From positions 1-16,099 of IMG/VR virus record IMGVR_UViG_2802429227_000005: DNA of 16,099 nucleotides; one strand, written 5' to 3'. The translations under genes and the position numbers were made by a program. The notes under the pieces are model-generated. The model was not told where the DNA came from, made no database searches, and saw only the letters and a program-made list of their open reading frames with translations. How positions within the stretch are numbered: the stretch's first letter is position 1; each line of letters opens with the position of its first letter. Below, piece by piece: positions 5,847-15,726 of the stretch. The stretch is from a virus. Its lineage: Duplodnaviria; Heunggongvirae; Uroviricota; Caudoviricetes.

Positions 5847-5965
5847 AACGCCTCCAGTTGTTTCTTTGCTGCTCTGATTAATTGTTTAACTCGGCGTGAT
5901 AATTCAGATTCGTGCGGGTAGAAAGCGGACATGACGCCGCTACCCGCGAGCTGAAAGTGCATCAT
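5831..5965 (-). CDS. cIII: CIII-like protein (44 aa; putative FtsH inhibitor that would stabilise CII)
   Basis: Translation MMHFQLAGSGVMSAFYPHESELSRRVKQLIRAAKKQLEALCAMK aligns in pattern with lambda CIII (...AGWPVAGCPSESLLERITRKLRDGWKRL...); GGAG 6 nt upstream of the ATG-ATG. The ORF-track entry 5831..6070 has a longer, probably spurious N-terminal extension. Confidence 0.5.
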   Translation of the reverse strand: MMHFQLAGSGVMSAFYPHESELSRRVKQLIRAAKKQLEALCAMK

Positions 5966-6025
5966 GGGTAACTCCTTATATTTGATTGCATAACGAAAAC
6001 GCCTCGAGTGAAGCGTTATTGGTAT

Positions 6026-6055
6026 GCATATAAAAAGGCCCTCACATTGGAGGGC
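6026..6055 (-). terminator. Rho-independent terminator candidate in the PL operon (between ral and cIII-like)
   Basis: Minus strand GCCCTC-CAATGT-GAGGGC (6-bp stem) followed by CTTTTTATAT. Confidence 0.5.
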
Positions 6056-6191
6056 AAAGAAGATTTCCAATAATCAGAACAAGTCGGCTCCTGTTTAGTT
6101 ACGAGCGACATTGCTCCGTGTATTCACTCGTTGGAATGAATACACAGTGCAGTGTTTATTCTGTTGTTTATGCCAAAAATAAAGGCCACCA

Positions 6192-6392
6192 TCAGGCAGC
6201 CTTGTTATTCTGTTTACCAAGTTCTCTGGCAATCATTGCCGTAGTTCGTATTGCCCATTTATCGACATATTTCCCATCCTCCATTACAGGAAACATTTCT
6301 TCAGGCTTAACCATGCATTCCGATTGCAGCTTGCATCAATTGCATCGCTTGAATTGTCCACACCATTGATTTTTATCAATAGTCGTAGTCAT
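6192..6392 (-). pseudogene. ral: ral-like restriction-alleviation gene interrupted by an in-frame TGA at codon 19 (6336..6338)
   Basis: Minus-strand frame reads MTTTIDKNQWCGQFKRCN-TGA-CKLQSECMVKPEEMFPVMEDGKYVDKWAIRTTAMIARELGKQNNKAA: 66 codons in one frame with a single internal stop. The family assignment is from memory of lambda Ral. Confidence 0.5.
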
Positions 6393-6462
6393 ACGGATAG
6401 TCCTGGTATTGTTCCATCACATCCTGAGGATGCTCTTCGAACTCTTCAAATTCTTCTTCCAT
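6376..6462 (-). CDS. Very small acidic ORF (28 aa), orf28-like, overlapping the ral start
   Basis: Manual translation MEEEFEEFEEHPQDVMEQYQDYPYDYDY; AAGGTGA Shine-Dalgarno 5 nt upstream; its stop overlaps the ral ATG (6390..6392); position matches the small ORF between sieB/N and ral in lambda. Confidence 0.4.
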   Translation of the reverse strand: MEEEFEEFEEHPQDVMEQYQDYPYDYDY

Positions 6463-6608
6463 ATATCACCTTAAATAGTGGATTGCGGTAGTAAAGATTG
6501 TGCCTGTCTTTTAACCACATCAGGCTCGGTGGTTCTCGTGTACCCCTACAGCGAGAAATCGGATAAACTCTATTCACCCCCTACAGAGAGAATGATGGAG
6601 ATTCACCG

Positions 6609-7148
6609 ATGAGTAACTGGTGGCAGGAACTATTACGTTTCTTCCTGCGTGGTCTTACGCTACAACAGTTAATTCATATGCTTATTATTTTAATTGCCTT
6701 GATAATAATCACCCCTGCATCAATTAAAGAGTGGGTAGATATAAGGAACCCAGAAATACTTCCAGATCACTGGATGTATTACGCAATGCTTTTGTGTATC
6801 AGTTATGTTCTGAACAGGGTGATGGAGTTTATATTTCTGGCATCTTCAGACAGATATAAAAAATATCTCAGTAAGAGAGATGAGGCTAAAGTAATTGTGG
6901 AGACTGAGCGCCTGTTCAATTCTCTGAGTATTCAGGAAAAAGAGGTTTTAGCATTTGCTGTTATGGCAAATAACAAAATCGTACTTAAGCACGGCGATCC
7001 GGTCGCTTTATCTCTTATGAGAAAAGGCCTTCTCCATCGCTCAGGTGTGACTTACAGCGCGTCAGGTAAAGAGAAATTTGTTATACCTGACGTCTGGTTC
7101 CATGAGTGTTATATGCGCTTTGCTGGTAAAGCTGATGAGCTAATTTAG
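6609..7148 (+). CDS. sieB: Superinfection-exclusion protein B-like membrane protein (179 aa)
   Basis: N-terminal transmembrane segment (LIHMLIILIALIIITPA); rightward gene embedded in the leftward PL operon and ending 21 bp from the 3' end of N, as sieB does in lambda. Assignment is positional and topological, not by sequence identity. Confidence 0.45.
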   Translation: MSNWWQELLRFFLRGLTLQQLIHMLIILIALIIITPASIKEWVDIRNPEILPDHWMYYAMLLCISYVLNRVMEFIFLASSDRYKKYLSKRDEAKVIVETERLFNSLSIQEKEVLAFAVMANNKIVLKHGDPVALSLMRKGLLHRSGVTYSASGKEKFVIPDVWFHECYMRFAGKADELI

Positions 7149-7756: not shown

Positions 7757-8407
7757 TTAAGGAAGGTTTGCTAGCTTGGCATCAACGACAACGCCAATGA
7801 TTTTACAGTTCCCATTGATTTCAATCATTGGGTATTGTGGATTGAGTGGTTTCAGGAATTTTCTACCGGCATCAATAACTAACTTTTTGAATGTCGCCTC
7901 GTTTTCTCCTTCAAGTTTGGCGACTACCAGCTTTCCATTACGTGGTTCGACTTCTGGGTCGACGAGAATAATCATCCCCTCAGGAATACTCAGTCCTGCC
8001 GGGGCAGTCATTGAATCGCCTTTAACGTCGAGCCAAAAAGAGTCTTCAGAACAATCTACCGTTGTGTCGTACCAGTTATCTATTGCACGCCTATGATATG
8101 GCTCTACAGCTTCCATCCAACATCCTGCGCTTACCCAACTAATTAGAGGATACGAACCTCTTGGATCATGCCTGCTGTGATAGGCAATGTTTGAAAGACT
8201 ATCCTCTCCTTTCAACAGGTAATCAGGGGAGCACTGCAAAGCCTTGGCTAAGGCCAATAGGTTTTCGCCATTGGGCTCAGTTTCAGATCGCTCCCACTGG
8301 GAAATAGCAACATTAGACACGCCAACCATCTTGCCAAGGGCAGCCTGCCTAATCTTGAGTTCTTTTCTGCGAGCGCGAATACGCTCACCCATCAGTTGTG
8401 TATTCAT
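7757..8407 (-). CDS. c2: Phage repressor, P22 C2 type (HTH_XRE N-terminal domain plus LexA/S24-like C-terminal domain; 216 aa)
   Basis: Translation MNTQLMGERIRARRKELKIRQAALGKMVGVSNVAISQWERSETEP... matches the P22 c2 repressor almost residue for residue as I recall it; C-terminal GDSM and K (Ser-Lys dyad) self-cleavage motifs are present. Confidence 0.9.
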   Translation of the reverse strand: MNTQLMGERIRARRKELKIRQAALGKMVGVSNVAISQWERSETEPNGENLLALAKALQCSPDYLLKGEDSLSNIAYHSRHDPRGSYPLISWVSAGCWMEAVEPYHRRAIDNWYDTTVDCSEDSFWLDVKGDSMTAPAGLSIPEGMIILVDPEVEPRNGKLVVAKLEGENEATFKKLVIDAGRKFLKPLNPQYPMIEINGNCKIIGVVVDAKLANLP

Positions 8408-14388: not shown

Positions 14389-14903
14389 GCATAAGAGAGC
14401 TAAACCTCACCAAAGAACAGCACGATTGGCTGAATGGCTGGCTTGAACTGTGGGGCGCATGGGTTTATTCAGGTCGTCTGGAAAAGCGCATGAGCAGCGT
14501 AATAGCGAAGTTCATGGAGAGCGTAGAGCCGGGAAGAGTTATGACAAGGCCAATGTGCAATGATGATGATGGAATGTTGATTTCTCAGGTCGTCGATTCT
14601 GTCATGTGCATTGACAAGAAAGCCTTTGGCATCCTCCTCAGCTACTACGCTCATGGTTCATCTAAGCGAGCAATTGCATCCTACTATCACGCGACTGCAA
14701 AGCCACGCAAGATGTGTGGACGCGGTGGCGAGGGATGGAGAAAACCTTCACTGGCAACCTGTAGAAACGAAATTGACGATATCCTGAAAGCGTCATTATT
14801 TGTTTTGTACCAACCAATGCAAAATGCTTTCAAAATGCGTAAACGTGTTGAGAAAGTTAAGCATGTTGCTGTTAAAAGCCTTGACATGCAATTAGCCATT
14901 TAG
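14385..14903 (+). CDS. Q: Late-gene antiterminator Q, non-lambda type (172 aa)
   Basis: Last gene before a PR'-like promoter and the lysis cassette; N-terminal LELWGAWV motif and Cys-rich segment resemble non-lambda Q families as I recall them; ATGA-coupled to ninH. Confidence 0.55.
   Translation: MSIRELNLTKEQHDWLNGWLELWGAWVYSGRLEKRMSSVIAKFMESVEPGRVMTRPMCNDDDGMLISQVVDSVMCIDKKAFGILLSYYAHGSSKRAIASYYHATAKPRKMCGRGGEGWRKPSLATCRNEIDDILKASLFVLYQPMQNAFKMRKRVEKVKHVAVKSLDMQLAI
14678..14710 (-). promoter_or_regulatory. paQ-like CII-dependent antisense promoter inside Q: TTGC-N6-TTGC (14697..14710) then 13 nt then -10 TAGGAT (14678..14683)
   Basis: Minus strand TTGCGTGGCTTTGC-AGTCGCGTGATAG-TAGGAT; identical spacing architecture to the pRE-like site at 8779..8811. 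Confidence 0.45.
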
Positions 14904-14910
14904 CCATAAT
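14881..14910 (+). promoter_or_regulatory. PR' late promoter candidate (-35 TTGACA at 14881..14886, 18-bp spacer, -10 CATAAT at 14905..14910); qut expected to overlap
   Basis: Consensus-like hexamers overlapping the Q stop codon; oriented toward S/R. Confidence 0.45.
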
Positions 14911-14920
14911 TAGAGGGTAA

Positions 14921-14962
14921 GCTGCCATTAGTGACTCTTAAGTTGCAACGGTGGCTTTTTTT
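14921..14962 (+). terminator. tR'-like terminator candidate: weak hairpin followed by a T7 run (14956..14962)
   Basis: GCCATT...GGTGGC imperfect stem (includes G-U pairs) then TTTTTTT; lies about 45 nt downstream of the predicted PR' start. The hairpin is weak. Confidence 0.3.
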
Positions 14963-15382
14963 GTTTGCACAACAGGTAAGAGCATTGAACCCTCAGACCT
15001 CGCGGAATTGGTGAAAGGTGCCGCGCAGTGCTCTTATCGTTGTGGTGAATGCACAGGCTGATGTGTAAGGGCAAGAATCTTTCGCTGGATTCGGTGTGGC
15101 CACGTAGCCCGCTGTAGGCAGTTGCAGCAAACCGGAGATCAGCACCGGTCGCCACAATCCAAACTGAGCCGTAGCCACTGGCTATCCTGAACTCATCAGT
15201 GATAGTTATGCTGCGGCCTTCTACATATGACCTTCGTGAAAGCGGGTGGCAAGAGGCTGCGCTAACAACCTCATGCCGTTTTGCCCGTGCATATCGGTCA
15301 CGAACAAATCTGATTACTAAACACAGTAGCCTGGATTTGTTCTATCAGTAATCGACCTTATTCCTAATTAAATAGAGCAAAT

Positions 15383-15396
15383 CCCCTTATTGGGGG
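15383..15396 (+). promoter_or_regulatory. sdi-like stem-loop (CCCC-TTATT-GGGG) immediately upstream of the dual start of S
   Basis: Hairpin overlapping the Shine-Dalgarno for the Met1/Met3 starts (ATGAAGATG at 15403..15411), as in lambda S translational control. Confidence 0.5.
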
Positions 15397-15402
15397 TAAG
15401 AC

Positions 15403-15726
15403 ATGAAGATGCCAGAAAAACATGACCTGTTAGCTGCCATTCTCGCGGCAAAGGAACAAGGCATCGGGGCAATCCTTGCGTTTGCAATGGCGTACCTTCG
15501 CGGCAGATATAATGGCGGTGCGTTTACAAAAACAGTAATCGACGCAACGATGTGCGCCATTATCGCCTGGTTCATTCGTGACCTTCTCGACTTCGCCGGA
15601 CTAAGTAGCAATCTCGCTTATATAACGAGCGTGTTTATCGGCTACATCGGTACTGACTCGATTGGTTCGCTTATCAAACGCTTCGCTGCTAAAAAAGCCG
15701 GAGTAGAAGATGGTGGAAATCAATAA
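15403..15726 (+). CDS. S: Holin S, lambda type, with dual start (S107 antiholin / S105 holin; 107 aa)
   Basis: Translation [107 protein letters not shown] is essentially lambda S as I recall it. Confidence 0.9.

What the first reader, a model, noticed from the sequence alone, without database searches (positions are those of the whole stretch)
6192..6392. ral-like gene carries a single in-frame TGA at codon 19
On the minus strand a 66-codon frame with a good start (ATG at 6390..6392, overlapping the stop of a 28-aa upstream ORF) reads MTTTIDKNQWCGQFKRCN, then TGA, then CKLQSECMVKPEEMFPV... to a stop embedded in a terminator loop. The frame is continuous on both sides of the stop, so this is either a recent nonsense mutation in a restriction-alleviation gene or a programmed UGA readthrough. 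From memory, lambda Ral has Gly (GGA) at this position, which would make it a single G to T change; I cannot verify that here.
Basis: partly seen in the sequence, partly recalled or inferred. Interest (0 to 1): 0.6.

Follow-up and report, generated by a model that had tools for sequence, protein, structure and literature searches.

The report
Nonsense-mutated ral gene in a prophage
A prophage copy of the well-known lambda anti-restriction gene ral has one G-to-T change that turns conserved glycine codon 19 into a stop, which is an ordinary knocked-out accessory gene and not a recoding signal.

Summary
On the minus strand, 6392..6192 is phage lambda's ral gene (Pfam PF11058). Codon 19 is TGA at 6338..6336, where lambda and all close relatives have GGA (Gly).

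The allele is rare:
- 0 of 870 ral copies in complete E. coli genomes
- 0 of 55 phage records
- 0 in the genome and metagenome collections scanned
- 1 IMG/VR contig (L005), from an unrelated lambda-like phage with a different ral haplotype

Gly19 is nearly invariant and lies inside a conserved C-x5-C-x2-C-x5-C motif. No homologue ends at residue 18.

Nothing supports programmed recoding. The downstream RNA folds no better than shuffles. The context is UGA-U. The gene's own stop is TGA. The flanks are identical to wild type.

The other four differences from lambda are synonymous. All 27 phage Kapi1 proteins that match the window align without internal stops. ral decay is common elsewhere: R16*, W46*, frameshifts and fusions.

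Best reading: a young loss-of-function nonsense allele of a dispensable anti-restriction gene. A 40-codon remnant ORF from the invariant Met27 could reinitiate, but that is untested. Interest is low.

The parts
6192..6392 (-). ral (restriction alleviation) reading frame: 66 codons plus stop, interrupted at codon 19
   Evidence: Translation. The repaired protein scores 162.5 bits against PF11058. The surrounding 401-nt stretch (6100..6500) is 98.3% identical to lambda and 99.3% to E. coli prophages whose gene is annotated as 'antirestriction Ral family protein'.
6336..6338 (-). Premature TGA at codon 19; the minus-strand T at 6338 replaces the G of GGA (Gly19)
   Evidence: Alignment A1 shows GGA in lambda, GF4, MS 16-3 and O55:H7 and TGA only in the window. 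The T is found in 0 of 870 E. coli places and 0 of 55 phage records. Gly19 is at least 90% conserved.
6336..6392 (-). Residual 18-codon ORF (MTTTIDKNQWCGQFKRCN) plus the premature stop; the predicted primary translation product
   Evidence: It keeps only Cys11 and Cys17 of the four conserved cysteines.
6192..6314 (-). 40-codon downstream ORF from the invariant Met27 (ATG 6314..6312), 21 nt after the premature stop; a possible reinitiation product (inferred, not shown)
   Evidence: the ORF listing reports it. It scores 90.3 bits against PF11058 positions 27-66. Its anti-SD pairing is -3.5 kcal/mol, against -4.0 for the true start. Gene callers chose this start even in four loci where ral is intact. 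Met27 is invariant.
6376..6462 (-). 28-codon upstream ORF (the orf28 of lambda), overlapping the ral start by 17 nt in another frame
   Evidence: Sequence. Lambda annotates it as orf28, lambdap47. It is 100% identical in lambda, the window and L005.
6173..6203 (-). Terminator-like hairpin with the natural ral TGA stop in its loop, followed by a T tract
   Evidence: scan_promoters_terminators reports 9 pairs and a 4-nt loop followed by TATTTTT. The fold gives -16.8 kcal/mol, z = -3.41.

Best explanation
This is an ordinary loss-of-function allele of the lambda-type anti-restriction gene ral, in an otherwise intact-looking P22-like prophage. The prophage resembles phage Kapi1 (genus Lederbergvirus). 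The source is NCBI assembly GCA_002965925.2, contig PTSX02000020.1.

A single G-to-T transversion changed GGA (Gly19) to TGA. Gly19 sits inside the conserved Cys-x5-Cys-x2-Cys-x5-Cys motif.

What is shown:
- The gene's identity.
- The exact mutation.
- Its rarity.
- Conservation of the residue it replaces.
- The intactness of neighbouring genes.

What is inferred:
- Ribosomes starting at the ral AUG terminate after 18 residues. No full-length Ral is then made beyond trace near-cognate readthrough.
- The phage therefore loses Ral's ability to switch type IA restriction-modification (R-M) enzymes (the EcoKI family) to de novo methylation of its unmodified DNA.
- ral is non-essential, so the prophage remains viable. 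The allele is neutral or mildly selected in a lysogen.
- The mutation is probably young, because the rest of the gene carries only synonymous differences.
For: - Identity and mutation. The window differs from lambda ral at nt 55 (nonsense) and at nt 114, 150, 186 and 192 (all synonymous).
- Rarity: 0 of 870 places in 781 complete E. coli genome records and 0 of 55 phage records. There were no exact matches in genome contigs or metagenome contigs. Viral contigs gave 1 match, against at least 120 (capped) wild-type matches.
- Conservation: Gly19 is at least 90% conserved and Cys11, Cys17, Cys20 and Cys26 are conserved in 25 to 31 homologues down to about 65% identity. No homologue ends at residue 18.
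- No recoding signal: the 76 nt around and after the UGA fold at -15 kcal/mol, z = 0.00. Rfam finds nothing in the window. The gene's own terminator codon is TGA.
- Neighbours are intact: all 27 Kapi1 proteins with a match in the window align without internal stops. The called genes of the source contig have normal family sizes.
- ral decay is common elsewhere. R16* (CGA>TGA) occurs in 5 draft assemblies. W46* and a frameshift occur in IMG/VR contigs. The protein database holds many frameshifted, fused or truncated Ral entries.
- Function: reviews state that Ral is non-essential and acts by enhancing modification by type IA R-M systems (PMC3874165; PMC12707154).
Against: - The same G>T occurs in a second, unrelated phage. 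L005 is a lambda/ev017-like phage with exo-bet-gam, and its ral haplotype differs at five downstream sites. The allele has therefore recurred or spread, which leaves room for selection or residual function.
- A second nonsense allele (R16*) lies only three codons upstream. Both leave the most conserved C-terminal 40 codons intact behind the invariant Met27.
- No expression or phenotype data exist.
- The base call in this draft assembly could not be checked against reads.
Confidence: 0.82

Rival explanations
1. The allele is only partly null. After terminating at UGA19, ribosomes reinitiate at AUG27, 21 nt downstream, and make the 40-residue C-terminal part of Ral. That fragment would keep some activity or gain a different one. 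N-terminal stops (R16*, G19*) would then be tolerated or even selected.
For: - The 40-aa ORF holds most invariant family positions, including Met27.
- It scores 90.3 bits against PF11058 positions 27-66.
- It covers the better-predicted part of the AlphaFold model: a beta-hairpin at residues 36-43 and a helix at 45-64.
- Its SD-like pairing of -3.5 kcal/mol is similar to the true start's -4.0.
- Gene finders choose this start even in intact genes.
- Two different nonsense alleles lie just upstream of it.
Against: - The four conserved cysteines are all lost. Their conservation implies the N-terminal part is needed.
- Other natural disruptions hit the C-terminal part too: W46*, frameshifts and fusions. 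The pattern therefore looks like general decay.
- Both alleles are very rare.
- There is no experimental evidence for an internal start in ral.
Confidence: 0.08
2. The T is a sequencing or assembly error in this draft genome, and the real prophage has GGA.
For: - The source is a draft assembly.
- The allele is absent from every complete E. coli genome and phage record searched.
- Reads cannot be inspected here.
Against: - The identical change is present in an independent IMG/VR contig from a different phage.
- The site is not in a homopolymer or repeat.
- 27 other genes in the window show no stops.
- The source contig is recorded in 2 samples.
Confidence: 0.07
3. The UGA is programmed recoding, either selenocysteine insertion or efficient readthrough, and gives a full-length Ral with Sec or Trp between Cys17 and Cys20.
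For: - The frame is open on both sides of the stop.
- The position lies in a Cys-rich motif where Sec would be chemically plausible.
- Escherichia has the Sec machinery (general knowledge).
Against: - The sequence around the stop is identical to wild-type ral, so no dedicated signal has evolved.
- The downstream RNA shows no SECIS-like or otherwise unusual hairpin, z = 0.00.
- No Rfam match was found.
- TGA is not conserved: 0 of 870 plus 0 of 55 copies, and Gly in at least 90% of homologues.
- The fourth base is U. From memory of Poole, Brown and Tate 1995, that is the strongest-terminating context in E. coli. PMC5373646 confirms only that the fourth base affects termination.
- ral itself ends with TGA.
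Confidence: 0.02

Closest known systems
Phage lambda ral (lambdap46, NP_040622.1; Pfam PF11058 'Antirestriction protein Ral')
   Same: It has the same 66-codon gene. Over the 201-nt gene it differs from lambda at only 5 positions. The upstream orf28 and the terminator hairpin over the stop codon are the same. It holds the same place in the leftward early operon, between N/sieB and cIII/kil.
   Different: Codon 19 is TGA instead of GGA, so only 18 residues can be made from the normal start. The host phage is P22-like (closest to phage Kapi1) with RecT, not lambda with exo-bet-gam.
Other natural ral nonsense and decay alleles: R16* (CGA>TGA) in five NCBI draft assemblies, W46* in IMG/VR locus L135, and frameshifted or fused Ral entries
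   Same: These are single-step inactivations of the same accessory gene inside otherwise normal prophage early regions. R16* lies only three codons away and is also a TGA.
   Different: The position and mutation type differ: a G>T transversion here against a C>T transition for R16*. G19* is seen in only two contigs.
K60* (AAA>TAA) C-terminal truncation polymorphism of ral
   Same: It is also an in-frame stop created by a single transversion to T, and it co-occurs with TGA19 in L005.
   Different: K60* is common: 16 of 134 surveyed copies on several haplotypes. It removes only the variable last 7 residues, and natural homologues of 59 aa exist. It is probably functional, whereas G19* removes 48 of 66 residues.

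Membership tests
Ral antirestriction family (PF11058) | Sequence match to the family profile above the curated cut-off | tested here: met
   The repaired 66-aa frame scores 162.5 bits against a cut-off of 25, covering profile positions 1-66. The 40-aa downstream ORF scores 90.3 bits.
Ral antirestriction family (PF11058) | Position in the leftward (pL) early operon of a lambdoid phage, downstream of N and sieB and upstream of cIII and kil | tested here: met
   ORF map and called genes of the source contig: cI, N, sieB, ral, cIII, kil, recT. Lambda has the same order.
Ral antirestriction family (PF11058) | Uninterrupted ORF of about 59-67 codons encoding the conserved C-x5-C-x2-C-x5-C motif and the C-terminal RTTxMIxREL segment | tested here: not met
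   TGA at codon 19 splits the motif. Homologues are 59-67 aa with Gly19 at least 90% conserved. This is therefore a ral pseudogene or null allele, not a functional member.
Ral antirestriction family (PF11058) | Restriction alleviation and modification enhancement of type IA R-M systems (EcoKI, EcoBI) | not testable with these tools
   The activity is known only from experiments on lambda Ral (PMC3874165; PMC12707154).
Bacterial selenocysteine recoding | SECIS stem-loop immediately 3' of the UGA | tested here: not met
   The fold of 6345..6270 gives -15 kcal/mol, z = 0.00, and 92 of 200 shuffles fold at least as well. The UGA sits inside a weak local hairpin, and no distinct hairpin follows at SECIS distance. 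No Rfam hit was found.
Programmed stop-codon readthrough | The stop codon is conserved among homologues, with a leaky context | tested here: not met
   The TGA is absent from 870 E. coli and 55 phage copies and is Gly in homologues. The context is UGA-U. The strength of that context rests on general knowledge and was not measured here.

The most novel reading that the evidence does not exclude
N-terminal stops in ral (G19* and R16*) may not be simple nulls. They could be tolerated or selected alleles that either (a) still yield the conserved 40-residue C-terminal module by reinitiation at the invariant Met27, or (b) are favoured in lysogens because leaky Ral weakens the host's own type IA restriction barrier. 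The occurrence of G19* on two ral haplotypes in two unrelated phages would then reflect selection or recombinational spread rather than coincidence.
Probability: 0.07. Interest if true: 0.4.

Novelty: already known. Interest (0 to 1): 0.1.

Why it matters
It matters little beyond annotation.
- The locus should be annotated as a ral pseudogene (G19*). It should not be called a 40-aa 'Ral family protein', which is what gene callers produce here.
- Phage induced from this lysogen would be predicted to lack Ral-mediated protection when it enters hosts with EcoKI-type (type IA) restriction systems.
- The side survey gives a small, usable picture of natural ral variation. There are rare N-terminal nonsense alleles, and there is a common K60* truncation that marks the last seven residues as probably dispensable.
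- That picture could guide mutagenesis of a protein that still has no solved structure.

Tried and rejected
1. Selenocysteine or readthrough: rejected. The RNA fold around and after the UGA is no more stable than shuffles and Rfam finds nothing in the window.
2. L005's two stops in ral as evidence of selection for inactivation or of secondary decay: rejected. Its TAA at codon 60 is a common polymorphism on several haplotypes (16 of 134 copies). L005 is simply the K60* haplotype plus G55T.
3. The 364 database blocks carrying the 40-aa ORF as a measure of how often ral is disrupted: rejected. Four of the ten loci examined have an intact ral that the gene caller started at Met27.
4. Structure route: there is no PDB relative. 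The AlphaFold2 model has mean pLDDT 62.6, with the Cys-rich N-terminus poorly predicted, so no fold search was run. Zinc binding by the four cysteines remains an inference.
5. Exact-match scans for the allele in genome contigs and metagenome contigs, with 34-mer and 24-mer patterns, found nothing.
6. The query for R16* in complete E. coli genomes gave only 2 records at 99% identity or more. They were not listed among the full-length rows and are probably partial matches, so the result is inconclusive.
7. A literature search found nothing on natural ral nonsense alleles or on a defence system triggered by Ral.

Full report
**Observation**

The minus strand of 6392..6192 translates to MTTTIDKNQWCGQFKRCN*CKLQSECMVKPEEMFPVMEDGKYVDKWAIRTTAMIARELGKQNNKAA*.
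- The start ATG is at 6392..6390.
- The internal TGA is at 6338..6336.
- The natural stop, also TGA, is at 6194..6192.

The 28-codon ORF that overlaps the start (6462..6376) is the annotated orf28 of lambda. The natural stop sits in the 4-nt loop of a 9-bp hairpin followed by TATTTTT (6203..6182). That hairpin is flagged as terminator-like and is much more stable than shuffles, at -16.8 kcal/mol, z = -3.4.

**Identity**

- The 401-nt stretch around the gene is 98.3% identical to phage lambda. There the gene is annotated ral, 66 codons.
- It is up to 99.3% identical to E. coli prophages annotated 'antirestriction Ral family protein'.
- With codon 19 repaired, the product matches Pfam PF11058 end to end, at 162.5 bits against a cut-off of 25.
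- A five-way alignment shows GGA in lambda and three close prophages and TGA only in the window.
- Within the gene, the window differs from lambda at nt 55 (the nonsense change) and at nt 114, 150, 186 and 192. Those four are all synonymous.

**Source and context**

- The window is 100% identical over 14,314 nt to NCBI GCA_002965925.2, contig PTSX02000020.1 (locus L008).
- It is the early region of a P22-like prophage. The closest phage is Kapi1 (genus Lederbergvirus), at 65% coverage and 96% identity.
- The gene order is int ... recT, kil, cIII, ral, sieB, N, cI, cro, cII, O, dnaB-like, the nin region and Q.
- All 27 Kapi1 proteins that match the window align without an internal stop. ral is the only visibly broken gene.
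- The adjacent host gene sbcB is only about 94% identical to every complete E. coli genome. The host is therefore probably a non-coli Escherichia (inference).

**How common is the allele?**

I used a 61-nt query centred on the T, so that only an exact match reaches 99% identity.

| Collection | Copies with the T |
|---|---|
| Complete E. coli genomes (870 places in 781 records) | 0 |
| Phage records (55) | 0 |
| genome contigs (34-mer and 24-mer exact scans) | 0 |
| metagenome contigs (34-mer and 24-mer exact scans) | 0 |
| IMG/VR viral contigs | 1 (L005) |
| IMG/VR, wild-type 24-mer for comparison | at least 120 (capped) |

L005 is a different phage.
- It resembles lambda, ev017 and PhiR57_1 and carries exo-bet-gam.
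- It shares only the ral module with the window.
- Its ral haplotype differs from the window's at five sites downstream of the mutation.

The T is therefore very unlikely to be an artefact peculiar to one assembly. It either arose twice or moved between ral backgrounds. ral haplotypes are visibly mosaic, so recombination between nt 55 and nt 114 is plausible.

**Is the stop tolerated or programmed?**

- In 25 to 31 homologues down to about 65% identity, Gly19 is at least 90% conserved. Cys11, Cys17, Cys20 and Cys26 are conserved, forming a C-x5-C-x2-C-x5-C motif. No homologue ends at residue 18. That this motif binds zinc is my inference.
- There is no solved structure. The AlphaFold2 model is weak there: mean pLDDT 62.6, with better confidence only for the beta-hairpin at 36-43 and the helix at 45-64.
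- The sequence flanking the TGA is identical to wild type.
- The 76 nt around and after the stop fold no better than shuffles, z = 0.00.
- Rfam finds nothing in the window.
- The fourth base is U. From memory of Poole, Brown and Tate 1995, that is the best-terminating context in E. coli. PMC5373646 confirms only that the fourth base matters.
- ral itself uses TGA as its genuine stop.

Selenocysteine insertion or programmed readthrough is therefore not supported.

**Wider spectrum of ral variation**

Looking up the 40-aa downstream ORF (Met27 to the end) in public assemblies returned ten loci, which fall into three groups.

| Group | Loci |
|---|---|
| The window's own contig | 1 |
| A different nonsense allele, R16* (CGA>TGA) | 5 draft assemblies, in at least two prophage contexts |
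| Intact ral that the gene caller started at Met27 | 4 |

- W46* in one contig.
- A frameshift in one contig.
- K60* (AAA>TAA) in 16 copies on several haplotypes.

K60* is evidently a common, probably functional, C-terminal truncation, since 59-aa homologues exist. This removed my short-lived idea that L005's two stops indicate selection for inactivation or secondary decay. L005 is simply the K60* haplotype plus G55T.

The protein database also holds many frameshifted, IS- or deletion-fused and truncated Ral entries. ral is therefore a gene that decays sporadically in prophages, as expected for a non-essential accessory function (PMC12707154; PMC3874165).

**Mechanism**

The following is shown:
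- The gene's identity.
- The mutation.
- The conservation of the replaced residue.
- The absence of a recoding signal.

The following is inferred:
- Translation from the ral AUG ends after 18 residues.
- No functional Ral is made.
- On entering a host with a type IA R-M system, the induced phage loses Ral's conversion of the EcoKI-type methyltransferase to de novo activity.
- With only synonymous differences elsewhere in the gene, the event is probably young.

A residual possibility is reinitiation at AUG27, which lies 21 nt after the stop. Its SD-like pairing is -3.5 kcal/mol, against -4.0 for the true start. That would yield the conserved C-terminal 40 residues. Whether such a fragment is made or active is unknown. 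It would lack all four conserved cysteines.

**Comparison and novelty**

This is lambda ral with a null mutation. It meets the sequence and synteny criteria of the family and fails the intact-ORF criterion. The correct label is ral pseudogene (G19*). Nothing here is a new kind of system.

**Verdict**

Interest is low (0.1). The most novel reading not excluded is functional or selected N-terminal stop alleles. I give it about 7% probability.

Noticed in passing
ral nt 178 (codon 60) in related loci, e.g. L005:7831, L026, L035, L040, L058, L073, L081; the window itself has AAA at 6213-6215 (-): K60* (AAA>TAA) is a common natural ral allele: 16 of 134 surveyed copies, on at least six haplotypes. 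Together with natural 59-aa homologues, this suggests the last seven residues of Ral are dispensable.
   Followed up: partly
L006, L009, L011, L013, L014 at 7968-7970 (ral codon 16): A second N-terminal nonsense allele, R16* (CGA>TGA), occurs in five NCBI draft assemblies. They represent at least two different prophage contexts (ERF/anti-RecBCD type, Rad52/SSB type, and one remnant) and all carry the same ral haplotype.
   Followed up: partly
L007, L010, L012, L015 at 8001-8123; window 6192-6314 (-): Gene callers start ral at Met27, giving a 40-aa product, even where the full 66-codon frame is intact. This 40-aa 'protein' is recorded in 364 blocks of the assembly collection. It is mostly an annotation artefact, not a truncation.
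   Followed up: yes
L008:15500-16123 (host flank of the window's source contig): The sbcB gene next to the prophage integrase is only about 94% identical to all complete E. coli genomes. The lysogen is therefore probably a non-coli Escherichia species or cryptic clade.
   Followed up: partly
window 6203-6182, 6055-6038, 6017-5998 (- strand): Three terminator-like hairpins in a row lie between ral and cIII. Four were found in 5900-6800, against 0.6 expected from shuffles. From memory, this corresponds to the tL2 terminator cluster of lambda.
   Followed up: no
window 6147-6116 (- strand): There is an inverted repeat CTGTGTATTCA...TGAATACACGG (about 11 pairs, 10-nt loop) with no T tract after it. 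It is identical in lambda and L005. Its function is unknown to me.
   Followed up: no
window about 6575-6028 (- strand): The whole ral module is nearly identical in lambda, the window and L005. It comprises about 190 nt upstream, orf28, ral and the terminator region. The adjacent sieB side diverges sharply, which marks a clear mosaic boundary near 6575.
   Followed up: no
window 14903-15403: No tRNA genes lie in the gap between Q and the holin gene, whereas the closest phage, Kapi1, carries tRNA-Asn and tRNA-Thr there.
   Followed up: no
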